Of a stretch of DNA of 64,000 bases, positions 1 to 22,835 are shown in pieces. Each line of letters begins with the position of its first letter. The stretch's first letter is position 1. The notes beneath the pieces were generated by a model. It worked only from the letters and a program-made list of their open reading frames with translations, had not been told where the DNA came from and made no database searches. A program made the position numbers and the translations under genes. The stretch lies in NCBI RefSeq assembly GCF_054482525.1, contig NZ_CM137006.1; one strand, given 5' to 3'.

Positions 1-2179
1 ATGGCCGTTAAAGCCTCCGGGCGTTTTGTCCCTCCGTCAGCATTTGCCGCAGGCACCGGTAAGGCGTTTACCGGTGCTTATGCATGGAACGCGCCACGCG
101 AGGCTGTCGGGCGCGAAAGACCCCTTACACGTGACGAGATGCGTCAGGTGCAAGGTGTTTTATCCACGATTAACCGCCTGCCTTACTTTTTGCGCTCGCT
201 GTTTACGTCACGCTATGACTACATCCGGCGCAATAAAAGCCCGGTGCACGGGTTTTATTTTCTCACATCCACTTTTCAGCGTCGTTTATGGCCGCGCATT
301 GAGCGTGTGAATCAGCGCCATGAAATGAACACCGACGCGTCGTTGCTGTTTCTGGCAGAGCGTGACCATTATGCGCGTCTGCCGGGGATGAATGACAAGG
401 AGCTGAAAAAGTTTGCCGCCCGTATCTCATCGCAGCTTTTCATGATGTATGAGGAACTCTGCGATGCCTGGGTGGATGCGCATGGCGAAAAAGAATCGCT
501 GTTTACGGATGAGGCGCAGGCTCACCTCTATGGTCATGTTGCTGGTGCTGCACGTGCTTTCAATATTTCCCCGCTCTACTGGAAAAAATACCGTAAAGGG
601 CAGATGACCACGAGGCAGGCATATTCTGCCATTGCCCGTCTGTTTAACGATGAGTGGTGGACCCATCAGCTTAAAGGCCAGCGTATGCGCTGGCATGAGG
701 CGTTACTGATTGCTGTCGGGGAGGTCAATAAAGACCGTTCTCCTTATGCTAGTAAACATGCCATTCGTGATGTGCGTGCACGCCGCCAGGCAAATCTGGA
801 ATTTCTTAAATCGTGTGATCTCGAAAACAGGGAAACCGGCGAGCGCATCGACCTTATCAGTAAGGTGATGGGCAGTATTTCTAATCCTGAAATTCGCCGG
901 ATGGAGCTGATGAACACCATTGCCGGTATTGAGCGTTACGCCGCAGCAGAGGGTGATGTGGGGATGTTTATCACGCTGACCGCGCCGTCAAAGTATCACC
1001 CGACACGTCAGGTCAGAAAAGGCGAAAGTAAAACCGTCCAGCTAAATCACGGCTGGAACGATGAGGCATTTAATCCAAAGGATGCGCAGCGTTATCTCTG
1101 CCGTATCTGGAGCCTGATGCGCACGGCATTCAAGGATAATGATTTACAGGTCTACGGTTTGCGTGTCGTCGAGCCACACCACGACGGAACGCCGCACTGG
1201 CATATGATGCTTTTTTGTAATCCGCGCCAGCGTAACCAGATTATCGAAATCATGCGTCGCTATGCGCTCAAAGAGGATGGCGATGAAAGAGGAGCCGCGC
1301 GAAACCGTTTTCAGGCAAAACACCTTAACCGGGGCGGTGCTGCGGGGTATATCGCGAAATACATCTCAAAAAACATCGACGGCTATGCACTGGATGGTCA
1401 GCTCGATAACGATACCGGCAGGCCGCTGAAAGACACTGCTGCGGCTGTTACCGCATGGGCGTCAACGTGGCGCATCCCGCAATTTAAAACGGTTGGTCTG
1501 CCGACAATGGGGGCTTACCGTGAACTACGCAAATTGCCGCGCGGCGTCAGCATTGCTGATGAGTTTGACGAGCGCGTCGAGGCTGCACGCGCCGCCGCAG
1601 ACAGTGGTGATTTTGCGTTGTATATCAGCGCGCAGGGTGGGGCAAATGTCCCGCGCGATTGTCAGACTGTCAGAGTCGCCCGTAGCCCGTCGGATGACGT
1701 TAACGAGTACGAGGAAGAGGTCGAGAGGGTGGTCGGCATTTACGCGCCGCATCTCGGCGCGCGTCATATTCATATCACCAGAACGACGGACTGGCGCATT
1801 GTGCCGAAAGTTCCGGTCGTTGAGCCTTTGACTTTAAAAAGCGGCATCGCCGCGCCTCGGAGTCCTGTCAATAACTGTGGAAAGCTCACCGGTGGTGATA
1901 CTTCGTTACCGGCTCCCACACCTTCTGAGCACGCCGCAGCAGTGCTTAATCTGGTTGATGACGGTGTTATCGAATGGAATGACCCGGAGGTCGTGAGGGC
2001 GCTCAGGGGCGCATTAAAACACGGGCTGAGAACGCCAAATCGTCAGCAAAGAAACAGAAGCCCGTTAAAACCGAATGAAATAGCGCCATCGGCCAGGCTG
2101 ACCCGGTCGGAACGAATGCAAATTACCCGTATCCGCGTTGACCTTGCTCAGAACGGTATCAGGCCGCAGCGATGGGAGC
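1..2179 (+). pseudogene. A: P2-like replication initiation protein gpA (rolling-circle HUH endonuclease), 3' end interrupted by IS3 after codon 726
   Basis: Translation begins MAVKASGRFVPPSAF and contains HUH motif PHWHMMLF and tyrosine motif GYIAKYISK; the provided ORF (1-2217) reads 12 codons into IS3 before stopping. Start at position 1 assumed from recalled P2 gpA N-terminus. Confidence 0.88.
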
Positions 2180-2244
2180 TGATCTTACCCAGCAATAGTG
2201 GACACGCGGCTAAGTGAGTAAACTCTCAGTCAGAGGTGACTCAC

Positions 2245-2544
2245 ATGACAAAAACAGTATCAACCAGTAAAAAACCCCGTAAACAGCATTCGCCTGAATT
2301 TCGCAGTGAAGCCCTGAAGCTTGCTGAACGCATCGGTGTTACTGCCGCAGCCCGTGAACTCAGCCTGTATGAATCACAACTCTACAACTGGCGCAGTAAA
2401 CAGCAAAATCAGCAGACGTCTTCTGAACGTGAACTGGAGATGTCTACCGAGATTGCACGTCTCAAACGCCAGCTGGCAGAACGGGATGAAGAGCTGGCTA
2501 TCCTCCAAAAGGCCGCGACATACTTCGCGAAGCGCCTGAAATGA
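2245..2544 (+). CDS. insE: IS3 transposase OrfA (InsE-like, 99 aa)
   Basis: [31 protein letters not shown]... helix-turn-helix/leucine-zipper OrfA of IS3; the provided ORF starts 3 codons upstream. Confidence 0.92.
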
Positions 2545-3407
2545 AGTATGTCTTTATTGAAAAACATCAGGCTGAGTTCAGCATCAAAGCAATGTGCCGC
2601 GTGCTCCGGGTGGCCCGCAGCGGCTGGTATACGTGGTGTCAGCGGCGGACAAGGATAAGCACGCGTCAGCAGTTCCGCCAACACTGCGACAGCGTTGTCC
2701 TCGCGGCTTTTACCCGGTCAAAACAGCGTTACGGTGCCCCACGCCTGACGGATGAACTGCGTGCTCAGGGTTACCCCTTTAACGTAAAAACCGTGGCGGC
2801 AAGCCTGCGCCGTCAGGGACTGAGGGCAAAGGCCTCCCGGAAGTTCAGCCCGGTCAGCTACCGCGCACACGGCCTGCCTGTGTCAGAAAATCTGTTGGAG
2901 CAGGATTTTTACGCCAGTGGCCCGAACCAGAAGTGGGCAGGAGACATCACGTACTTACGTACAGATGAAGGCTGGCTGTATCTGGCAGTGGTCATTGACC
3001 TGTGGTCACGTGCCGTTATTGGCTGGTCAATGTCGCCACGCATGACGGCGCAACTGGCCTGCGATGCCCTGCAGATGGCGCTGTGGCGGCGTAAGAGGCC
3101 CCGGAACGTTATCGTTCACACGGACCGTGGAGGCCAGTACTGTTCAGCAGATTATCAGGCGCAACTGAAGCGGCATAATCTGCGTGGAAGTATGAGCGCA
3201 AAAGGTTGCTGCTACGATAATGCCTGCGTGGAAAGCTTCTTTCATTCGCTGAAAGTGGAATGTATCCATGGAGAACACTTTATCAGCCGGGAAATAATGC
3301 GGGCAACGGTGTTTAATTATATCGAATGTGATTACAATCGGTGGCGGCGGCACAGTTGGTGTGGCGGCCTCAGTCCGGAACAATTTGAAAACAAGAACCT
3401 CGCTTAG
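2541..3407 (+). CDS. insF: IS3 transposase OrfB (InsF-like, 288 aa, DDE integrase domain)
   Basis: 288-aa ORF overlapping orfA by ATGA; contains HTDRGGQY...[14 protein letters not shown]-type motifs; expected to be expressed as an OrfAB fusion by -1 frameshift. Confidence 0.92.
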
Positions 3408-3440
3408 GCCTGTGTCCATATTACGTGGGTAGGATCAAGC

Positions 3441-3541
3441 TTGAGGTGCTGGCGCGTGGGGCAACGGTAAGCTATTGTGGGGAAAAATTTACGTATCCGG
3501 TCGCTGATGAGGGGGCGGGATTTGTAGTATGTAAATGGTGA
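3441..3541 (+). pseudogene. A: Displaced 3' remnant of gene A (last ~34 codons) downstream of IS3
   Basis: Joining 2179 to 3441 (removing IS3 and one TSD copy) continues the A frame as LEVLARGATVSYCGEKFTYPVADEGAGFVVCKW-stop at 3539-3541, giving ~760 aa, the expected gpA length. Confidence 0.6.
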
Positions 3542-3791
3542 AGGTAAGATGGGTTTTTGTCTGTAACGCATTGTTTTATATGGTTATATTTGATTTTTTG
3601 TAACGTGTGTTCATGTTTTCTTTGCTATGATTCATACTACTGCTATAGATGGCTAAAGATATAGGTTGTTGCTTAAATGTATATAGATAATTAAACGCCT
3701 TAATTTTTGATGAGATGTGTCATAAAGTGGAGTCTGTATGGCATAATTTTATGGGGCATGACATTTATACCATTCTTAAAAAGGAGATTAT

Positions 3792-5459
3792 ATGCTGATA
3801 ACTTTCTCAGGACAAAATTATAAGGCATACGAGAGTTTTAAGTTGTCTTTAAAGCCATTGACAATATTATTAGGGGCAAATAGTTGTGGGAAAAGTGCAT
3901 TAATTAACTCTTTGTTGATGTTTTCTCAGTCTGTTGATTCAATGTCATTGTCTGATTCTGCTTTAAGGTTGAATGGGCCTAAAGTTGGGATGGGAGAAGC
4001 ATTAAATATAATAAAAAATAAAGATGACTCCAAAACACTTAGTTTTAGTTTTGATTTTTCTGATAATACAGTGGTTAAAAATGGCATTGATACACTGAGG
4101 AGAGAAACTTTAGAATCATTTGCTATGATTATGCGATTCACAGTGCAAACGGTGAAAAATAATGACGCTTTGGTTACGAAAGCCAATGATTTAATAAATG
4201 AGGCTTCGAATGCGATCGTTAACTTTGACGAATTTGAGGAAGCTGAGTTAAAGGTTATCGCTGATAAGTTATGTCAATTACTTTTGCTTTTTAGGGAGGC
4301 GGGTGATAATGTCACATTTAGTCGTGCGACCTCAGAAAATTTACGCAAATTTATATATGAATGTCCATTAAAGAGAATAAAGGATTGTCTAACTAAAGTT
4401 ATTTCCATTTCAGGAAATAAATTGTCGGCTTCTAAGATAAGCTATGATTTCAAATATGATAAAAATAAAGGGGTGATAAAAGTTTCGAGGCTTGTTCTTT
4501 TAAATAAGAATGATGAAAAGATAGTTGAGCTATTACCAAAGAAGAATAATGTCGTTGTATTATCAGATGTTATCCCTCAAGAAGTGTTTAGAGGATGTCA
4601 GTCAGATATCTTAGAAATCATCAATCCTTATTCGCTGGGGCTGTTCCCTGTCAATAATGGGCGTGGTTTTTATGTTTTTTTTGGTAACTCTTATAATCCT
4701 GTTGTTAATTTTTTATCACATGTTGTTTCTTTGGGTGTATTAATGCTTTCAAAAATGTTTGATGGTGAAAATGTTAATCACGTCAGCCCATTGAGAGCAT
4801 TTCCTCAGCGATATTATCTATTAGACAAAACAGTCAATCATGCGCAGTTAAATTCTGCCGATGGATCTGAGTTAGCGGAGATCTTGAAGAAAAATACAAA
4901 AATAACAGAAAATATAAATCTTCTTCTGGCTGAATTTAATTTGGCTGTTGATATAGTTAAAGTTAATGACATAATTCATAAAATTGTTATAAACCAAGAT
5001 GCTGTTAATTTAGAGTTGACAGATGTGGGGTTTGGAATATCACAAGTATTGCCTGTCTTGGTTCAAGCTTATTTGTCACCAAAGGGTTCGATTACAATAA
5101 TAGAACAACCAGAAATACATTTGCATCCTAAAATGCAGGCATGGTTAACGGACGCATTAATTAAAATATCTATGCAAGAAAAGAAAGTATTTATTATTGA
5201 AACCCATAGCGATGCTTTAGTTAGACGAATTAGATTAAGAATTGTTGATGAATCGAGTGAACTTACAGAGGATCATGTTGCAATCTACCATCTTGAGCGC
5301 GATGAAGAGGGAACATCAACATTGCTGAATAGGGTGGCTGTAAATTCTGATGGAGATATCACATGGCCAAATGAATTTATGGATGTTGAGATTCAGGATA
5401 CAATTAGAATACAGGAGTTAAAGATACAGAAAATAATGAACTCAAAGGGGGTTCATTGA
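3792..5459 (+). CDS. ABC-type (AAA_15/AAA_21-like) ATPase, 555 aa; first gene of cargo operon in the P2 A-cos accessory slot; candidate defence-system ATPase
   Basis: Walker A GANSCGKS at aa 28-35 (nt 3873-3896); Walker B/D-loop ITIIEQPEIHLHP at aa 434-446 (nt 5091-5129); H-loop IIETHS; ~400-aa insert between Walker A and B; AAGGAG RBS 6 nt upstream; AT-rich codon usage unlike flanking phage genes. Confidence 0.75.
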   Translation: MLITFSGQNYKAYESFKLSLKPLTILLGANSCGKSALINSLLMFSQSVDSMSLSDSALRLNGPKVGMGEALNIIKNKDDSKTLSFSFDFSDNTVVKNGIDTLRRETLESFAMIMRFTVQTVKNNDALVTKANDLINEASNAIVNFDEFEEAELKVIADKLCQLLLLFREAGDNVTFSRATSENLRKFIYECPLKRIKDCLTKVISISGNKLSASKISYDFKYDKNKGVIKVSRLVLLNKNDEKIVELLPKKNNVVVLSDVIPQEVFRGCQSDILEIINPYSLGLFPVNNGRGFYVFFGNSYNPVVNFLSHVVSLGVLMLSKMFDGENVNHVSPLRAFPQRYYLLDKTVNHAQLNSADGSELAEILKKNTKITENINLLLAEFNLAVDIVKVNDIIHKIVINQDAVNLELTDVGFGISQVLPVLVQAYLSPKGSITIIEQPEIHLHPKMQAWLTDALIKISMQEKKVFIIETHSDALVRRIRLRIVDESSELTEDHVAIYHLERDEEGTSTLLNRVAVNSDGDITWPNEFMDVEIQDTIRIQELKIQKIMNSKGVH

Positions 5460-5460
5460 C

Positions 5461-6462
5461 ATGTATTGTGCAGTGTGTTTGTGTCCTGATTTTGTTGCGG
5501 CTAATATTTCTGATATTAATTTATTTAGTGGTTTTTTTATTGGAACCATTGTTAATGGTGAAAATCAGTTGATTTTAGATGCTGATGAAAAAATCCGTTT
5601 GGGCTATTTGAAATCTTGTAAAAATAACAAGGATTCTTTTTATCTGCTTCAGAAATGGGAGGCTGAATTATCTAAAGCTTCTTCAGGTAAAATATTGCTT
5701 GCACCAGTGAGTAATAGTACTGATGATATTAAGGATATAGTTGTTTGTGCAGTTGCTAACGCAGCTACCACCTTTGATAAACATATTGTGGTATTAGACA
5801 ATAATAGTTACTCTGGATATGTTGATGAATTAATTAGGCAAAGAGTTAATTTGTTAAATCTTAATAGTATAAGTTTAATATCAAAGGAGGATAGGGTGCA
5901 GCGTCCTTTGAATTTTATAAAGTTTGATAGCGATTTGTCTTGGGTGCTTCAAAGACTGGGGCGACGCTCTGCTAAAGGATATGGCGAAGATGATTTTAAT
6001 GATTTTATACGAGATATGTTATTAGCTAAAAATTATGAGGTAAAAGATCAAACTCGAGAAGGAGAGTCTCAATCGGGGAAAAAAGCCGGTGAGTTAGATC
6101 TTGTTATTGAAGATAGAGGAGAACTGTTTGCTATAATAGAAGCCTTGATTTTAAACTCTTTAGATCAAGCTAACATATTAAAGCATTATTCAAAGTTAAT
6201 TGATAACTATAATCCTATTCATGTCAAAAGGTTGTTTTTAATTGCTTATTATACAGGTGCAAAATTCGATGCCTGGTGTGAAAGATATATTGAGTATCTA
6301 AAGGGGATTACTTCGGTAGATATTGGTGTGGAATCTCATCAGATAGTTGAGGTTAAAGAAGTGGATACCCCGTACATAGGCTTAAGAAAAATTGAACATC
6401 ATTTTAGATATGCGGGGGAGCACTATTTTTGTATCCATTATGCAGTCAAAATGGCTCGGTGA
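5461..6462 (+). CDS. Hypothetical protein, 333 aa; partner of the ABC ATPase (translationally coupled); candidate effector of unknown fold
   Basis: ATG 1 nt after the ATPase stop (TGA-c-ATG); AT-rich; Cys cluster CAVCLC at N-terminus; acidic stretch GELDLVIEDRGELFAIIEAL; no motif I can assign confidently. Confidence 0.65.
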   Translation: MYCAVCLCPDFVAANISDINLFSGFFIGTIVNGENQLILDADEKIRLGYLKSCKNNKDSFYLLQKWEAELSKASSGKILLAPVSNSTDDIKDIVVCAVANAATTFDKHIVVLDNNSYSGYVDELIRQRVNLLNLNSISLISKEDRVQRPLNFIKFDSDLSWVLQRLGRRSAKGYGEDDFNDFIRDMLLAKNYEVKDQTREGESQSGKKAGELDLVIEDRGELFAIIEALILNSLDQANILKHYSKLIDNYNPIHVKRLFLIAYYTGAKFDAWCERYIEYLKGITSVDIGVESHQIVEVKEVDTPYIGLRKIEHHFRYAGEHYFCIHYAVKMAR

Positions 6463-9767: not shown

Positions 9768-10622
9768 ATGGCAAAAAAAGTCTCAAAATTCTTTCGTATC
9801 GGCGTTGAGGGTGACACCTGTGACGGGCGTGTCATCAGTGCGCAGGATATTCAGGAAATGGCCGAAACCTTTGACCCGCGAGTCTATGGTTGCCGCATTA
9901 ACCTGGAACATCTGCGCGGCATCCTGCCTGACGGTATTTTTAAGCGTTATGGCGATGTGGTCGAACTGAAGGCCGAAAAGATTGACGATGATTCGGCGCT
10001 GAAAGGCAAATGGGCGCTGTTTGCGAAAATCACCCCGACCGATGACCTTATCGCGATGAACAAGGCCGCGCAGAAGGTCTACACCTCAATGGAAATTCAG
10101 CCGAACTTTGCCAACACCGGCAAATGTTATCTGGTGGGTCTGGCCGTCACCGATGACCCGGCAAGCCTCGGCACGGAATACCTGGAATTCTGCCGCACGG
10201 CAAAACACAACCCCCTGAACCGCTTCAAATTAAGCCCTGAAAACCTGATTTCAGTGGCAACGCCCGTTGAGCTGGAATTTGAAGACCTGCCTGAAACCGT
10301 GTTCACCGCCCTGACCGAAAAGGTGAAGTCCATTTTTGGCCGCAAACAGGCCAGCGATGACGCCCGTCTGAATGACGTGCATGAAGCGGTGACCGCTGTT
10401 GCTGAACATGTGCAGGAAAAACTGAGCGCCACTGAGCAGCGCCTCGCTGAGATGGAAACCGCTTTTTCCGCACTTAAGCAGGATGTGACTGACAGGGCGG
10501 ATGAAACCAGCCAGGCATTCACCCGCCTGAAAAACAGTCTCGACCACACCGAAAGTCTGACCCAGCAGCGCCGCAGCAAGGCCACCGGTGGTGGCGGTGA
10601 CGCCCTGATGACGAACTGCTGA
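9768..10622 (+). CDS. O: P2-like capsid scaffolding protein gpO (284 aa)
   Basis: Start at MAKKVSKFF (ATG 9768); length 284 aa as P2 gpO. Confidence 0.9.
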   Translation: MAKKVSKFFRIGVEGDTCDGRVISAQDIQEMAETFDPRVYGCRINLEHLRGILPDGIFKRYGDVVELKAEKIDDDSALKGKWALFAKITPTDDLIAMNKAAQKVYTSMEIQPNFANTGKCYLVGLAVTDDPASLGTEYLEFCRTAKHNPLNRFKLSPENLISVATPVELEFEDLPETVFTALTEKVKSIFGRKQASDDARLNDVHEAVTAVAEHVQEKLSATEQRLAEMETAFSALKQDVTDRADETSQAFTRLKNSLDHTESLTQQRRSKATGGGGDALMTNC

Positions 10623-14109: not shown

Positions 14110-14535
14110 ATGAAGAAATTATCCCTTTCACTGATGCTGAACGTGTCGCTGGCACTGATGCCGGCACTGTCCCTGATTTACCCGCAGAGCGTGGCCGTCA
14201 ATTTTGTCGCCGCCTGGGCGATTCTGGCGACGGTTATCTGTGTGGTTGCCGGTGGTGTCGGCGTGTATGCCACTGAGTATGTGCTGGAACGCTACGGGCG
14301 GGAGCTGCCGCCGGAATCGCTGGCCGTGAAGATTGTCGCGTCGCTGTTTTTGCAGCCGGTGCCGTGGCGCAGACGGGCGGCGGCTCTGGTGGTGATGGTG
14401 GCGACGTTTATCTCGCTGGTCGCTGCCGGGTGGATTTTTACCGCGCTGATTTACCTCGTGGCGTCGGTGTTCTTCCGGCTGATACGTACGGCCTGCCGTC
14501 AGTGTTTTGAGGAGCGGCAACCATGTCAAGGCTGA
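14110..14535 (+). CDS. lysA: P2-like lysis accessory protein LysA (141 aa, membrane protein)
   Basis: 141-aa hydrophobic ORF after K. Confidence 0.85.
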   Translation: MKKLSLSLMLNVSLALMPALSLIYPQSVAVNFVAAWAILATVICVVAGGVGVYATEYVLERYGRELPPESLAVKIVASLFLQPVPWRRRAAALVVMVATFISLVAAGWIFTALIYLVASVFFRLIRTACRQCFEERQPCQG

Positions 14536-15093: not shown

Positions 15094-15523
15094 TGCCGTC
15101 ACGGTACTGAAAACTAACCCCGATATGCTGCGGATATTCGTGGATAACGGGAGTATTGCCTCCACACTGGCGACGTCGCTGTCATTCGAAAAGCGTTACA
15201 CGCTCAATGTCATTGTGACCGACTTTACCGGTGATTTTGACCTGCTCATTGTGCCGGTGCTGGCGTGGCTGCGGGAAAATCAGCCCGACATCATGACCAC
15301 CGACGAAGGCCAGAAAAAGGGCTTCACGTTTTATGCAGACATCAACAATGACAGCAGCTTTGATATCAGTATCAGCCTGATGCTGACCGAGCGCACGCTG
15401 GTCAGTGAGGTTGACGGTGCGCTGCATGTGAAGAATATCCCGGAACCCCCGCTGCCGGAGCCGGTCACCCGCCCGATGGAGCTGTATATCAATGGCGAAC
15501 TGGTGAGCAAGTGGGATGAATGA
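15056..15523 (+). CDS. R: P2-like tail completion protein gpR (155 aa)
   Basis: 155-aa ORF; size and order match P2 R. Confidence 0.88.
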   Translation: MLKPDSLRRALTDAVTVLKTNPDMLRIFVDNGSIASTLATSLSFEKRYTLNVIVTDFTGDFDLLIVPVLAWLRENQPDIMTTDEGQKKGFTFYADINNDSSFDISISLMLTERTLVSEVDGALHVKNIPEPPLPEPVTRPMELYINGELVSKWDE

Positions 15524-15968
15524 GTTTAAGCGTTTTGAAGACCGGCTGACCGGACTTATTGAATCGCTGTCACCGTCAGGGCGTCGGCGACTGAGTGCCG
15601 AACTGGCGAAACGTCTGCGGCAGAGTCAGCAGCGTCGGGTGATGGCTCAGAAAGCCCCGGACGGCACACCCTACGCGCCACGCCAGCAGCAGAGCGCCAG
15701 AAAAAAGACCGGTCGTGTTAAGCGAAAAATGTTTGCGAAACTTATCACCAGTCGTTTTTTGCATATCCGCGCCAGCCCGGAACAGGCATCAATGGAATTT
15801 TACGGCGGGAAGTCACCGAAAATCGCCAGCGTGCATCAGTTCGGCCTGTCGGAAGAAACCCGGAAAGACGGTAAGAAAATTGATTATCCGGCGCGTCCTC
15901 TGCTCGGCTTTACCGGTGAGGATGTGCAGATGATTGAAGAGATTATCCTGGCTCACCTTGAGCGTTAG
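15516..15968 (+). CDS. S: P2-like tail completion protein gpS (150 aa)
   Basis: 150-aa ORF overlapping R end; P2 order. Confidence 0.88.
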   Translation: MNEFKRFEDRLTGLIESLSPSGRRRLSAELAKRLRQSQQRRVMAQKAPDGTPYAPRQQQSARKKTGRVKRKMFAKLITSRFLHIRASPEQASMEFYGGKSPKIASVHQFGLSEETRKDGKKIDYPARPLLGFTGEDVQMIEEIILAHLER

Positions 15969-15998
15969 TTTTATCCAGGCAGAGGCTGATGCGCAATT

Positions 15999-16033
15999 AA
16001 ACATTGAGCGGCCATGCTGGTCGCTCAATGTTT
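15999..16033. terminator. Bidirectional stem-loop between S (+) and the reverse-strand moron
   Basis: 12-bp perfect inverted repeat aaacattgagcg...cgctcaatgttt with 11-nt loop, between convergent genes. Confidence 0.45.
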
Positions 16034-16039
16034 AGAGGT

Positions 16040-16825
16040 TTATGAGTGATTTTTATTTGATGCTTTGTATTCTACAACCTTCTTATTGGCGTAAAGGAAT
16101 TTTGTATATGACAGGAATATAACCAGACCTGAAATGAAATAGATGAGGGATATTATTAATAATGCTTTTTTTTGGCTGTTATTATCTTTAATCTCCTGAC
16201 TTAACCATTCCGAGTCCTCCTCGTTTAGCTGTAAGAGATTATTGCAGGCGATCTCAGGAAGTGTGTCTTTTATAAATACGTTTCGTAGCCTCTTGCAATC
16301 GGCAAGGCTATAAGTTTTATTGAATTCAACTGTTTTATTGTTGAAGGATAAAAGAACTTTGTCACTATAAACATAGTACATCATATTTTTATATGGTATG
16401 CCTATGGCATCTCTTACTATAGCGGATTGTTTGTTGTGTATATAACATGCGAAGAGAATATAAATAATGCTGGACAGAATTACAATTATTGTTTTAATTA
16501 TGTGTGGTGGTTTTGTTATGTCACCCCAGAAGCGAGTAAGAAAAAAATACGATGTTTTTAGTTTTCCATCAATCAGCCCCTGCTGTATCATTCTCACATC
16601 TTCGATGCCTGATACATTGATTCCGTTAATTATTTTAAATAGTTGAATGTCGCGCCATTTTTTGTCGAGCATTTTTAACTTTCTGTCTGAATACTCAAAA
16701 TTGAAATGATGTGCAATAAACCTCATAAGATTACTTTTACCAAAGGTAACAAATGTTAATGCTATTAATAAAAATAGATACAAAGAGATAAACCACCACG
16801 CATTAGTCACATTATCACTGAACAT
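16040..16825 (-). CDS. Moron: predicted membrane protein (261 aa, about three hydrophobic segments) in the S-V intergenic slot
   Basis: Opposite strand to the late operons; strongly AT-rich, Lys/Asn/Ile-rich; hydrophobic segments WWFISLYLFLLIALTFVTF, IIKTIIVILSSIIYILFACYI, ALLIISLIYFISGLVIFLSY. Confidence 0.7.
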   Translation of the reverse strand: MFSDNVTNAWWFISLYLFLLIALTFVTFGKSNLMRFIAHHFNFEYSDRKLKMLDKKWRDIQLFKIINGINVSGIEDVRMIQQGLIDGKLKTSYFFLTRFWGDITKPPHIIKTIIVILSSIIYILFACYIHNKQSAIVRDAIGIPYKNMMYYVYSDKVLLSFNNKTVEFNKTYSLADCKRLRNVFIKDTLPEIACNNLLQLNEEDSEWLSQEIKDNNSQKKALLIISLIYFISGLVIFLSYTKFLYANKKVVEYKASNKNHS

Positions 16826-16908
16826 TACGCTCTCCTCGAATGTTGTATGGTCGTTCTACAAATGAATCCAGATAGCATAACTTTTATATATTGTGCAATC
16901 TCACACGC

Positions 16909-17544
16909 ATGAACACTCTCGCAAATACTCAGGAACTCGCGCGCGCACTGCGCAACATGATCCGCACCGGCCTTGTCGTCGAAACCGACCTTAATGCCGG
17001 TCGCTGCCGTGTGCAGACCGGCGGCATGTGCACCGACTGGCTTCAGTGGCTGACCCATCGCGCCGGGCGTTCGCGCACATGGTGGGCACCTTCCGTGGGG
17101 GAACAGGTGCTGATTCTGGCCGTGGGTGGTGAACTCGACACGGCGTTCGTTCTGCCGGGGATTTATTCCGGCGATAACCCCGCGCCGTCTGCGTCGGCGG
17201 ATGCCCTGCATATCCGTTTCCCTGACGGGGCGGTGATTGAGTATGAACCTGAAACCAGCGCGCTCACGGTAAGCGGAGTTAAAACGGCCAGCGTGACGGC
17301 TTCTGATTCTGTTACTGCCACGGTGCCGGTGGTCATGGTGAAAGCATCAACCCGCATCACCCTGGACACGCCGGAGGTGGTCTGCACCAACAGGCTGATT
17401 ACCGGCACGCTGGAAGTACAGAAGGGCGGGACGATGCGCGGCAACATTGAACACACCGGCGGTGAACTCTCATCAAACGGTAAGGTACTGCATACCCATA
17501 AACACCCCGGCGACAGCGGCGGCACAACAGGGAGTCCTCTATGA
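16909..17544 (+). CDS. V: P2-like baseplate spike protein gpV (211 aa)
   Basis: Start at MNTLANTQELARALRNMIRTG (ATG 16909); 211 aa. Confidence 0.9.
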   Translation: MNTLANTQELARALRNMIRTGLVVETDLNAGRCRVQTGGMCTDWLQWLTHRAGRSRTWWAPSVGEQVLILAVGGELDTAFVLPGIYSGDNPAPSASADALHIRFPDGAVIEYEPETSALTVSGVKTASVTASDSVTATVPVVMVKASTRITLDTPEVVCTNRLITGTLEVQKGGTMRGNIEHTGGELSSNGKVLHTHKHPGDSGGTTGSPL

Positions 17545-21719: not shown

Positions 21720-22159
21720 TTACCGTCCAATGATTAACGCTGAGACGCTGGTATCTGAAGGAAAGGCTGCATTCAGTGGTTTGTCGACTTTGAACACAAT
21801 CGTATTATTCCCCCTGACAGCGGCAAAAGAACAAACCGCCGTCGCGTATGAACCTGTAATATTACTGGATACACCACCATAAGCTGTTGTTGATACCAGA
21901 GGGATAACGCCCAGCACCTTATTAGGAAATACAAAGGGCAATGTGGCTGTGGCAATATAAGACTTATTAGAACCTGTAATGGCATAAGCATTATCAGTCA
22001 TTCCATTCATCGCCACTGGACCGCTTATACTTACAGTAACCATCTGAATGATTAGCCCGTCAGGTTGACGAATCACAAAATTTCCATTGCCACCAGTAAC
22101 CGTCCAGAAAGACATATCAGGGATTTGGTTTTCCCCGTTGCCCACATTTCGTTTTGCCG
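21720..22159 (-). CDS. Alternative (currently silent) tail-fibre C-terminal cassette, promoterless, expressed only after inversion
   Basis: Reverse-strand reading frame continuous from the right crossover site; shares the GLGE junction frame with H; no independent start expected. Confidence 0.65.
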
Positions 22160-22174
22160 CTTCTCCCAAACCAA
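22160..22174. repeat. Right inversion crossover site of tail-fibre segment
   Basis: CTTCTCCCAAACCAA, exact reverse complement of 20228-20242. Confidence 0.6.
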
Positions 22175-22241
22175 CGTTTAAGAAAATGCAGAGATTACGG
22201 CTAACTGGCATCATCCCCGGTTTTTATTCAGGGGATCCATC

Positions 22242-22835
22242 ATGCTTATTGGCTATGTCCGCGTGTCAACAAATGACCAGAATACGGAATTGCAGCGTAA
22301 CGCGCTGGAGTGTGCAGGATGTGAGCTTATTTTTGAGGATAAAATCAGCGGCACGAAGTCCGACCGACCGGGACTGAAAAAACTGCTCAGGACATTATCG
22401 GAGGGGGATACACTGGTGGTCTGGAAGCTGGACCGGCTGGGGCGTAGTATGCGGCATCTGGTCATTCTGGTTGAGGAACTGCGCGAACGCGGCGTTAATT
22501 TTCGCAGCCTGACGGATGCTATTGATACCAGCACGCCGATGGGGCGTTTTTTCTTTCATGTGATGGGTGCCCTGGCTGAAATGGAGCGAGAACTCATTGT
22601 CGAGAGGACACGCGCCGGACTGGAAGCGGCCAGAGCCAAAGGTCGTATTGGTGGCAGACGACCGAAACTCACCGCGAGTGAGTGGGAGCAGGCCGGGCGT
22701 TTGCTGGCTGCAGGGGAGTCACGTCAACGCGTGGCACTGATTTTTGATATTGGTCTGTCCACGCTCTATAAAAAATTTCCCTCATCAGCGACAAAGAATA
22801 AATTGTGTCATCCCTTAGCCAACCGGGACAAATAG
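22242..22835 (+). CDS. Serine recombinase, DNA invertase of the Pin/Gin/Hin/Cin family (197 aa)
   Basis: N-terminal catalytic domain MLIGYVRVSTNDQNTELQRNAL (active-site Ser in YVRVST), C-terminal HTH; positioned just outside the right crossover site. Confidence 0.9.
   Translation: MLIGYVRVSTNDQNTELQRNALECAGCELIFEDKISGTKSDRPGLKKLLRTLSEGDTLVVWKLDRLGRSMRHLVILVEELRERGVNFRSLTDAIDTSTPMGRFFFHVMGALAEMERELIVERTRAGLEAARAKGRIGGRRPKLTASEWEQAGRLLAAGESRQRVALIFDIGLSTLYKKFPSSATKNKLCHPLANRDK

What the first reader, a model, noticed from the sequence alone, without database searches (positions are those of the whole stretch)
16040..16825. AT-rich reverse-strand membrane-protein moron between tail genes S and V
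A 261-aa protein with about three hydrophobic segments is encoded on the opposite strand to the late operons, in strongly AT-rich DNA, flanked by a perfect 12-bp-stem bidirectional hairpin (15999-16033). Accessory ORFs are known at the S-V junction in P2-like phages. Small membrane proteins at such positions are often superinfection-exclusion or abortive-infection factors expressed from the prophage.
Basis: partly seen in the sequence, partly recalled or inferred. Interest (0 to 1): 0.55.

Follow-up and report, generated by a model that had tools for sequence, protein, structure and literature searches.

The report
Phage P2 orf30 membrane-protein gene
This is an allele of orf30, a long-known but never characterised non-essential gene of phage P2; it encodes a three-helix inner-membrane protein that probably acts in the lysogen, perhaps to keep other phages out, but that function is untested.

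Summary
A 261-codon ORF lies on the minus strand at 16040-16825. It is 32% G+C between tail genes S (54%) and V (61%), predicts three transmembrane helices, and is followed by a strong two-way hairpin at 15997-16035. It is not new: it is phage P2 orf30 ("nonessential" in AF063097), 84% identical in protein to the P2 allele and an exact match to public E. coli "hypothetical proteins".

New here:
- Orf30 belongs to PHROG 2407, a family remotely linked to Pfam DUF6216, with no solved fold relative and no defence-database hit.
- Predicted topology is N-out/C-in, with a conserved cytoplasmic helical domain and a periplasmic domain carrying a conserved cysteine pair.
- Relatives only 20-35% identical sit at the same place and orientation in other P2-like prophages. 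All are AT-rich, so this is a long-resident, fast-evolving gene rather than a recent pick-up.
- All 73 alleles examined are intact. dN/dS is 0.47, against 0.06 for S and 0.13 for V.
- One prophage carries two tandem paralogues. One relative overlaps the end of int in a cI-int gene string.

Best guess is a prophage-expressed envelope protection factor of the superinfection-exclusion type (confidence about 0.35). Function, promoter and expression remain unshown.

The parts
15516..15968 (+). Tail-completion gene S, the last gene of the P2 O late operon and the left border of the junction.
   Evidence: ORF list; annotated gpS in AF063097 over the aligned region; dN/dS 0.06.
15997..16035 (.). Two-way hairpin (18-bp stem, 3-nt loop) between the S stop and the orf30 stop. 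It is a putative terminator for the O operon on the + strand and for orf30 on the - strand.
   Evidence: Fold energies -32.4 and -21.6 kcal/mol, z -6.3 and -5.6. Annotated as a putative rho-independent terminator in P2. The simple terminator scan did not flag it because its T-run is short. The Rfam hits on it are spurious.
16040..16825 (-). orf30 allele. It encodes a 261-aa inner-membrane protein with three TM helices (11-29, 109-131, 221-243). Predicted layout: periplasmic N-tail, cytoplasmic helical loop 1 (30-108), periplasmic alpha/beta loop 2 (132-220) with Cys177 and Cys194, and a cytoplasmic K-rich C-tail.
   Evidence: It matches PHROG 2407 over its full length at E 2e-143. It is 84% identical to P2 Orf30. 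The exact sequence is in public E. coli records as a hypothetical protein.
16830..16837 (-). Shine-Dalgarno-like GAGGAGAG ending 4 nt upstream of the orf30 ATG.
   Evidence: Read directly from the sequence.
16840..16867 (.). Counterpart of the P2 'activator binding site' (Ogr) for late promoter P_V, beginning 15 nt from the orf30 start codon. Any orf30 promoter must overlap P_V or lie inside V.
   Evidence: Coordinates transferred from the AF063097 annotation 10239-10266. The intergenic region is 95-100% identical among P2-type phages.
16885..16913 (-). Best candidate sigma-70 promoter for orf30 (TTCATG-17-TATATA). Its -35 overlaps the V start codon. It is not better than chance.
   Evidence: My weight-matrix scan scored it 5.6, against a mean best score of 6.3 in shuffles. 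The tool's consensus scan found no minus-strand site upstream of the ORF.
16909..17544 (+). Baseplate spike gene V, the first gene of the P_V late operon. It is divergent from orf30 and forms the right border of the junction.
   Evidence: dN/dS 0.13.

Best explanation
The ORF is a functional allele of phage P2 orf30. It forms a self-contained transcription unit in the gap between two late operons. It encodes a three-pass inner-membrane protein with a periplasmic N-terminus, a conserved cytoplasmic helical domain, a disulfide-braced periplasmic domain and a cytoplasmic C-tail.

I propose that it is made in the lysogen rather than for virion production. I propose that it acts at the cytoplasmic membrane as an allele-specific protection factor of the superinfection-exclusion type. 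In this model the periplasmic and membrane parts meet a component of an incoming, heterologous phage, and genome entry is blocked.

Shown: the gene is real and constrained, its topology (in silico), its family, its conserved position, its dispensability and its fast evolution. Inferred: expression in the lysogen. Speculative: the exclusion mechanism and its target.
For: Real and constrained:
- 73 of 73 alleles are intact.
- dN/dS is 0.28-0.36 in the two loops.
- A strong SD precedes the ATG, and a hairpin follows the stop.

Membrane topology:
- Across 26 family members the N-tail has 2 K/R against 40 D/E.
- Loop 1 has 327 K/R against 202 D/E; loop 2 is neutral.
- Cys177 is present in 23 of 26 members and Cys194 in 26 of 26.
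- The C-tail is K/R-rich.
- The AF2 model has pLDDT 84 and pTM 0.72.

Accessory, not structural:
- About 26% of P2-type V loci in complete E. coli genomes carry it (481 of 1820 places).
- Viable phages lack it.
- P2 annotates it as 'nonessential'.

Conflict-like evolution:
- dN/dS is 0.47, against 0.06 for S and 0.13 for V.
- Mean pairwise protein distance is 0.109, against 0.001-0.066 for 11 neighbouring genes.
- Alleles reassort freely against the backbone (Mantel r at most 0.13).
- One prophage remnant carries two tandem paralogues only 25% identical to each other.

Lysogenic expression (inferred):
- The gene opposes both late operons and is shielded by a terminator.
- A Pantoea homologue (family HMM E 3e-74) starts 8 nt inside the end of int, in a same-strand cI-yebY-int-gene string.

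Guilt by location:
- Other cargo at the S-V junction includes an OLD-like protein in Burkholderia phage KS5 and a DNA methylase in KL3 (PMC3091744).
- It also includes an HNH-like protein in R18C (the HNH reading is from motifs seen by eye).
- Family members also sit in the Q-proximal hotspot beside a putAbiC gene.
Against: - No homology to any known exclusion or defence protein: PADLOC gave 0 hits at E up to 1, with no NCBIfam or Pfam assignment.
- No promoter above chance was found upstream, and no transcript data were found.
- The most conserved part of the family is the cytoplasmic loop. A pure periplasmic blocker would not obviously need that.
- The classical P2 lysogen phenotypes against lambda, T-even phages and T5 are credited to old, tin and fun, not to orf30 (general knowledge).
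- PADLOC includes systems from the E. coli pangenome selection on T4, lambda and T7 (PD-T4 models appear), and orf30 matches none.
- 18 complete genomes carry two orf30 copies, close to the roughly 16 expected if P2-type prophages accumulate independently. It probably does not exclude P2-type phages themselves.
Confidence: 0.35

Rival explanations
1. Abortive-infection type sensor-effector. The variable periplasmic and membrane parts sense an infection cue at the envelope. The conserved cytoplasmic domain then triggers growth arrest or membrane depolarisation, so the infected cell dies without releasing phage.
For: At family level the cytoplasmic loop 56-95 is the best-conserved region, while the periplasmic loop and the TM helices vary. 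That is the 'variable sensor, conserved effector' pattern. The evolutionary signals are the same as for the main model. One family member lies in a prophage cargo region beside putAbiC.
Against: It is a single small protein with no recognisable effector domain. PADLOC gave no hit. There is no toxicity or partner-gene signal: no conserved neighbour other than V and S.
Confidence: 0.2
2. A lysogenic-conversion factor unrelated to phage entry. One version is an immunity-like protein against membrane-targeting bacteriocins or tailocins. Another is a modifier of a host envelope process. Either would raise host fitness.
For: The layout resembles the immunity genes of pore-forming colicins: a reverse-strand gene for a multi-pass inner-membrane protein between forward genes (analogy from general knowledge, not tested). 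Tandem divergent paralogues recall immunity-gene arrays. Two intact paralogues persist in a prophage remnant whose J gene is truncated. The protein has a periplasmic domain stabilised by a cysteine pair. One homologue lies next to a DsbA gene.
Against: No sequence or fold similarity to any immunity family. No toxin gene is linked. Nearly all members seen are inside P2-like prophages.
Confidence: 0.2
3. A lytic-cycle accessory function for the phage itself, such as tuning lysis timing, membrane events during assembly, or post-infection exclusion expressed early after infection (as T4 imm is).
For: The gene is embedded in the late region, 84 bp from V. Any promoter would overlap P_V and the Ogr site. 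Its position next to V is conserved across lineages whose V proteins are 65-83% identical to this one.
Against: It is oriented against both late operons and shielded by a terminator. It is absent from about three quarters of P2-type prophages and from viable phages. Orf30 alleles do not co-vary with V, S, the holin, LysA or LysB. One homologue sits in a cI-int string. The S|V and G|FI gaps are the two inter-operon gaps in the tail-gene region, which by itself explains the position (general knowledge of the P2 map).
Confidence: 0.1
4. A chance or decaying ORF with no function.
For: No promoter was found. It is AT-rich DNA. It is annotated only as a hypothetical protein everywhere.
Against: 73 of 73 alleles are intact despite up to 26% protein divergence. 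dN/dS is below 0.4 in the loops. The family is conserved down to about 20% identity with invariant G68, D76, G87, C194 and I212. The fold prediction is confident.
Confidence: 0.02

Closest known systems
Phage P2 Orf30 (AAD03281.1; AF063097 9439-10224)
   Same: Same gene at the same position and orientation between S and V. The length is the same (261 aa). Protein identity is 84%, and DNA identity is 91% within the gene against 96-97% in the flanking genes S and V.
   Different: 41 amino-acid differences, 16 of them within residues 1-27 (N-tail and TM1). Closer alleles exist, for example 98.5% in Peduovirus P24A7b and an exact match in E. coli genomes.
PHROG 2407 (unknown function)
   Same: Full-length match at E 2e-143. 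All ten distant relatives tested also fall in this PHROG.
   Different: The PHROG carries no functional annotation.
Pfam DUF6216 (PF19723), integral membrane proteins of unknown function
   Same: 3 of 26 family members hit DUF6216 at E up to 1e-3, and 6 of 26 at E up to 0.1. The relative P0053 is annotated as DUF6216. AFDB proteins labelled DUF6216 match the model at E about 2e-5 to 5e-5.
   Different: The window protein itself gives no DUF6216 hit. DUF6216 has no known function, so the link adds no mechanism.
Inner-membrane superinfection-exclusion proteins (T4 Imm, P22 SieA, HK97 gp15)
   Same: These are small, phage-encoded, non-essential inner-membrane proteins. HK97 gp15 is likewise a moron among tail genes (general knowledge).
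   Different: No sequence or fold similarity was detected. Orf30 is larger and has two conserved soluble domains. This is an analogy only.
Other P2 accessory genes (old, tin, Z/fun) and S-V junction cargo in other P2-like phages
   Same: They are non-essential genes in the variable regions of P2-like genomes. The orf30 locus is one of three recognised variable regions (PMC3091744). KS5 carries an OLD-like gene at this junction and KL3 a methylase.
   Different: old, tin and fun have demonstrated phage-exclusion phenotypes; orf30 has none reported. Recent hotspot surveys did not treat the S-V junction.

Membership tests
P2 orf30 / PHROG 2407 | Full-length sequence homology to P2 Orf30 | tested here: met
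   84% identity over 261 aa; PHROG 2407 at E 2e-143 covering 1-261 of 261.
P2 orf30 / PHROG 2407 | Location between S and V on the opposite strand | tested here: met
   Window, P2 record, and every one of 77 IMG/VR loci where the flank is present.
Pfam DUF6216 (PF19723) | Significant match to the Pfam profile | tested here: not met
   The window protein has no DUF6216 hit even at E up to 10. Only 3 of 26 relatives reach E 1e-3. I treat it as a remote relative, not a member.
Moron (autonomous accessory unit in a phage genome) | Own terminator and atypical base composition | tested here: met
   Hairpin 15997-16035; G+C 0.32 against 0.54-0.61 in the flanks.
Moron (autonomous accessory unit in a phage genome) | Own promoter | tested here: inconclusive
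   No site above chance. The best candidate overlaps P_V.
Moron (autonomous accessory unit in a phage genome) | Present in some and absent from other close relatives | tested here: met
   The S-V spacer is 940 bp with orf30 and 66 bp without it among P2-type phages. Divergent homologues at the same site show long residence rather than recent gain.
Superinfection-exclusion protein | Cytoplasmic-membrane location | tested here: met
   In silico only: three TM helices and a consistent charge bias across 26 homologues.
Superinfection-exclusion protein | Expressed from the prophage | not testable with these tools
   Only indirect support: the gene's orientation and terminator, and a homologue overlapping int in a cI-int string.
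Superinfection-exclusion protein | Blocks genome entry of superinfecting phage without killing the cell | not testable with these tools
   Needs plating, adsorption and DNA-entry assays.
Known anti-phage defence systems (PADLOC-DB v2) | Match to any defence-protein model | tested here: not met
   0 families at E up to 1.
Phage lysis or structural proteins | Homology to a holin, antiholin, spanin, tail or baseplate protein | tested here: not met
   No Pfam, NCBIfam, PDB-sequence or fold match.

The most novel reading that the evidence does not exclude
Orf30 / PHROG 2407 (remote DUF6216) proteins are a previously unrecognised family of prophage-encoded, allele-specific inner-membrane immunity determinants. 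They are kept in P2-like phages as an exchangeable cassette. Each allele or stacked paralogue would recognise, within the membrane or periplasm, a different invading agent that breaches the inner membrane: a contractile-tailed phage, a tailocin or a pore-forming toxin. The conserved cytoplasmic domain would couple to a common host partner.
Probability: 0.25. Interest if true: 0.6.

Novelty: already known. Interest (0 to 1): 0.3.

Why it matters
orf30 is one of the few genes of the model phage P2 still without a function. It sits in about 8.5% of complete E. coli genomes (463 of 5426). The recent defence-hotspot surveys I checked did not discuss the S-V junction. Showing that this family is a conserved, rapidly diversifying, probably lysogen-expressed inner-membrane protein gives a concrete set of experiments. 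If a protective phenotype is found, it would add a fourth accessory function to P2 and a function to part of the DUF6216 superfamily. As it stands, the finding is a correct re-discovery of a known uncharacterised gene.

Tried and rejected
- The word-indexed protein search with the family profile found no new members.
- Co-adaptation with the adjacent spike V or with lysis genes is rejected. Mantel r is at most 0.13 for all 11 neighbouring genes tested.
- Self-exclusion of P2-type phages is disfavoured. 18 genomes carry two orf30 copies against about 16 expected by chance. From memory, classical P2 double lysogens also exist.
- The promoter search was negative in both the tool scan and my weight-matrix scan. 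A motif conserved across lineages (ATAAAGTT) cannot be separated from P_V elements on the other strand.
- Rfam gave nothing real in the region.
- The literature searches returned no experimental work on orf30.

Full report
**1. What is in the sequence**

The minus strand carries a 261-codon ORF at 16040-16825 that starts with ATG. A GAGGAGAG Shine-Dalgarno-like sequence ends 4 nt upstream of the ATG.

G+C falls from 0.54-0.61 in the flanking genes to 0.32 in the ORF.

Six bases beyond the stop codon lies an inverted repeat. As RNA it folds into an 18-bp stem with a 3-nt loop at 15997-16035. Free energy is -32.4 kcal/mol on the plus strand and -21.6 on the minus strand. None of 200 shuffles folds as well.

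The protein has three hydrophobic stretches at residues 11-29, 109-127 and 221-239.

**2. Identity**

A 2.1-kb stretch around the ORF matches P2-type phages over its whole length at 93-98% identity. That includes phage P2 itself, at 94.6%.

In the P2 record AF063097 the aligned features are:
- gpS
- a 'putative rho-independent terminator for O operon'
- orf30 ('nonessential', opposite strand)
- the activator (Ogr) binding site of the P_V promoter
- gpV

So the ORF is an allele of P2 orf30. It is 84% identical in protein to the P2 allele, with 41 differences, 16 of them within residues 1-27 (N-tail and TM1). The exact protein already exists in public E. coli assemblies, always named 'hypothetical protein'.

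The window as a whole is a P2-type prophage in an E. coli chromosome: the late genes Q to D lie at roughly 6.8-29.2 kb and are followed by trhP.

**3. What was already known**

The library describes orf30 only as a gene of unknown function. It also names the orf30 locus as one of three regions of P2-like genomes where unrelated genes replace each other (PMC3091744; R18C paper).

Recent surveys of defence hotspots in P2-like phages deal with the old/tin (Q-A) and Z/fun sites. One also reports a site near the repressor. None treats the S-V junction.

I found no experimental study of orf30.

**4. Family and fold**

The protein has no PADLOC hit, and no NCBIfam or Pfam match near significance. It matches PHROG 2407 (unknown function) over its full length.

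An exhaustive phmmer search of 1.84 billion cluster representatives found only 41 proteins. About 25 of them are full-length relatives at 17-33% identity. They align without large gaps. Invariant residues are G68, D76, G87, C194 and I212, and loop 1 carries a D-x-Q-L-F-R-x-x-N-G-I-N-V ... D-A motif.

Ten distant members tested all fall in PHROG 2407. Three of 26 also hit Pfam DUF6216 at E up to 1e-3. One more distant relative is annotated as DUF6216.

An AlphaFold2 model built on this alignment is confident (pLDDT 84, pTM 0.72). It shows three long TM helices, an all-helical first loop, and a second loop with a four-stranded sheet plus helices.

The model has no meaningful relative among solved structures. 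In the AlphaFold database it matches only uncharacterised proteobacterial membrane proteins, a few of them labelled DUF6216, DUF3592 or DUF2207.

**5. Topology (in silico)**

Charge counts across the 26 sequences:

| Region | K/R | D/E | Inferred side |
|---|---|---|---|
| N-tail | 2 | 40 | periplasm |
| Loop 1 | 327 | 202 | cytoplasm |
| Loop 2 | 310 | 314 | periplasm |
| C-tail | 113 | 60 | cytoplasm |

Loop 2 also holds the two conserved cysteines. Cys177 is present in 23 of 26 sequences and Cys194 in 26 of 26.

By the positive-inside rule this gives N-out/C-in, with loop 1 (about 80 aa) in the cytoplasm and loop 2 (about 88 aa) in the periplasm, probably braced by a disulfide.

At family level the cytoplasmic stretch 56-95 is the best-conserved part. 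The periplasmic loop and the TM helices are much more variable.

**6. Position is conserved; sequence is not**

In every one of 77 IMG/VR loci where the flank is present, the homologue lies between V and S on the opposite strand.

Seven further relatives at 20-33% identity are in the same slot, always directly next to V. They come from Yersinia, Sodalis, other Enterobacteriaceae and metagenomes. In the four divergent IMG/VR loci where V was compared with this window, it stays 65-83% identical.

Every homologue measured is AT-rich, at 0.32-0.35 G+C against 0.46-0.62 in the flanks. AT-richness is therefore a lasting property of the family, not a mark of recent import.

A Pantoea/Erwinia sub-branch sits at two other accessory sites of P2-like prophages:
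- One site is directly after int. The gene's ATG lies 8 nt inside the end of int, in a same-strand cI-yebY-int-gene string at the prophage border.
- The other is the portal-proximal cargo region, in one case in the same cargo stretch as a putAbiC gene.

**7. Population pattern in the P2 clade**

The gene is present at 481 places in 463 of 5426 complete E. coli genomes. A P2-type V gene is present at 1820 places in 1587 genomes. So about a quarter of these prophages carry orf30.

Isolated P2-type phages fall into two states at the S-V junction:
- a 940-bp spacer containing orf30
- an unrelated 66-bp spacer, as in Wphi, L-413C, pro147 and fiAA91-ss

R18C instead carries a forward-strand AT-rich gene. 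By eye, its CxxC...H...CxxC motifs suggest an HNH-like protein.

Among 73 alleles there are 56 DNA variants and 48 protein variants, and every one is intact.

Selection and divergence:

| Gene or region | dN/dS | Source |
|---|---|---|
| orf30, whole gene | 0.47 | |
| S | 0.06 | |
| V | 0.13 | |
| orf30 loops | 0.28-0.36 | |
| orf30 N-tail + TM1 | 1.2 | |
| orf30 TM3 + C-tail | 0.8 | |

Mean pairwise protein distance is 0.109 (maximum 0.26). The 11 neighbouring genes range from 0.001 to 0.066.

Orf30 distances do not track those of any neighbour, not even V or S (Mantel r at most 0.13). Meanwhile the two short intergenic flanks stay 94-100% identical. The gene therefore behaves as an exchangeable cassette.

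One prophage remnant keeps two tandem, intact paralogues only 25% identical to each other, beside a truncated J gene.

**8. Expression signals**

The unit is insulated. The O operon ends at the hairpin, and P_V fires away from orf30.

I could not find a promoter. The tool's scan found none on the minus strand upstream. My weight-matrix scan gives a best candidate of TTCATG-17-TATATA at 16913-16885, overlapping the V start codon and the P_V region. It scores below the mean best score of shuffles.

The Ogr site begins 15 nt from the orf30 ATG, so any promoter must overlap P_V or lie inside V. The two might then be mutually exclusive; that is inference only.

The only positive hint of lysogenic expression is the homologue fused into a cI-int gene string.

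**9. Mechanism**

Shown:
- It is a real, selectively maintained, dispensable gene.
- It encodes a three-pass inner-membrane protein with one conserved domain on each side of the membrane.
- It evolves faster than any neighbouring gene.
- It is exchanged like a cassette and is sometimes stacked in tandem.
- It occupies sites that elsewhere hold exclusion or anti-restriction cargo: an OLD-like gene in KS5 and a methylase in KL3.

Most likely (confidence about 0.35): it is a lysogen-expressed envelope protection factor of the superinfection-exclusion type, directed at heterologous invaders.

It is probably not directed at P2-type phages themselves. Double carriage of orf30 occurs about as often as chance predicts (18 observed against about 16 expected).

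Rivals and my rough weights:
- an abortive-infection sensor-effector, favoured by the conserved cytoplasmic domain (0.2)
- immunity to membrane-targeting bacteriocins or tailocins, or another envelope function (0.2)
- a lytic-cycle accessory role (0.1)
- no function at all (0.02), effectively excluded

None can be separated further without experiments.

**10. Verdict**

But it is the known gene orf30 of phage P2, so novelty is 'already known'.

The added value is a family-level description (PHROG 2407, remote DUF6216), a topology model, evidence of long residence with rapid diversification, and a concrete test plan. Interest is modest, at 0.3.

Noticed in passing
window 2541-6462: The cargo region upstream of portal gene Q (the old/tin hotspot position) holds three genes. 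They are an IS3-family transposase (2541-3407), a 555-aa AAA ATPase matching PADLOC NsnB, HEC-03B and AriA-like models (3792-5459, best E 2e-52), and an adjacent 333-aa protein with no hit (5461-6462). The last two are probably a two-gene defence system.
   Followed up: partly
window 21720-22835: At the G-FI (Z/fun) junction there is a serine recombinase / DNA invertase-like gene (22242-22835) and a 164-aa reverse-strand ORF (21720-22214) with no family hit. This may be an invertible tail-fibre segment rather than a fun-type gene.
   Followed up: partly
L105 5001-6658: Two tandem PHROG 2407 paralogues (256 and 252 aa, 25% identical) sit next to V in what looks like a prophage remnant. J is truncated to 126 aa and host genes follow directly.
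   Followed up: partly
L109 3759-6777: In a Pantoea P2/186-like prophage a family member starts 8 nt inside the end of int, in a same-strand cI-yebY-int-gene string at the prophage border. The P0014 loci (L004-L007) show an integrase remnant upstream and the same downstream GNAT gene.
   Followed up: partly
L107 581-1321; L025 5877-7214; L023 5800-7440: Other cargo occurs at the S-V junction. R18C has a forward-strand, 36% G+C gene whose CxxC...H...CxxC motifs look HNH-like by eye. One prophage has a DUF4062 protein between the Orf30 homologue and S. Another has an ORF6N-domain protein (weak PADLOC PDC-S05 hit) plus two small ORFs.
   Followed up: partly
L027 470-535 (phage pro147): The 'empty' S-V junction is a 66-bp spacer unrelated to either end of the orf30-bearing spacer. 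By eye it contains a GC-rich hairpin (GCCGCCGG...CCGGCGGC). The terminator and P_V region therefore differ between the two junction types.
   Followed up: no
window 14110-14535 (lysA): Among 11 neighbouring genes compared across the IMG/VR loci, lysA is the second most polymorphic after orf30 (mean protein distance 0.066, maximum 0.256).
   Followed up: no
window 1-2217: A 738-aa ORF starts at the first base of the window and has no NCBIfam hit. I did not establish whether it is the replication gene A or cargo.
   Followed up: no
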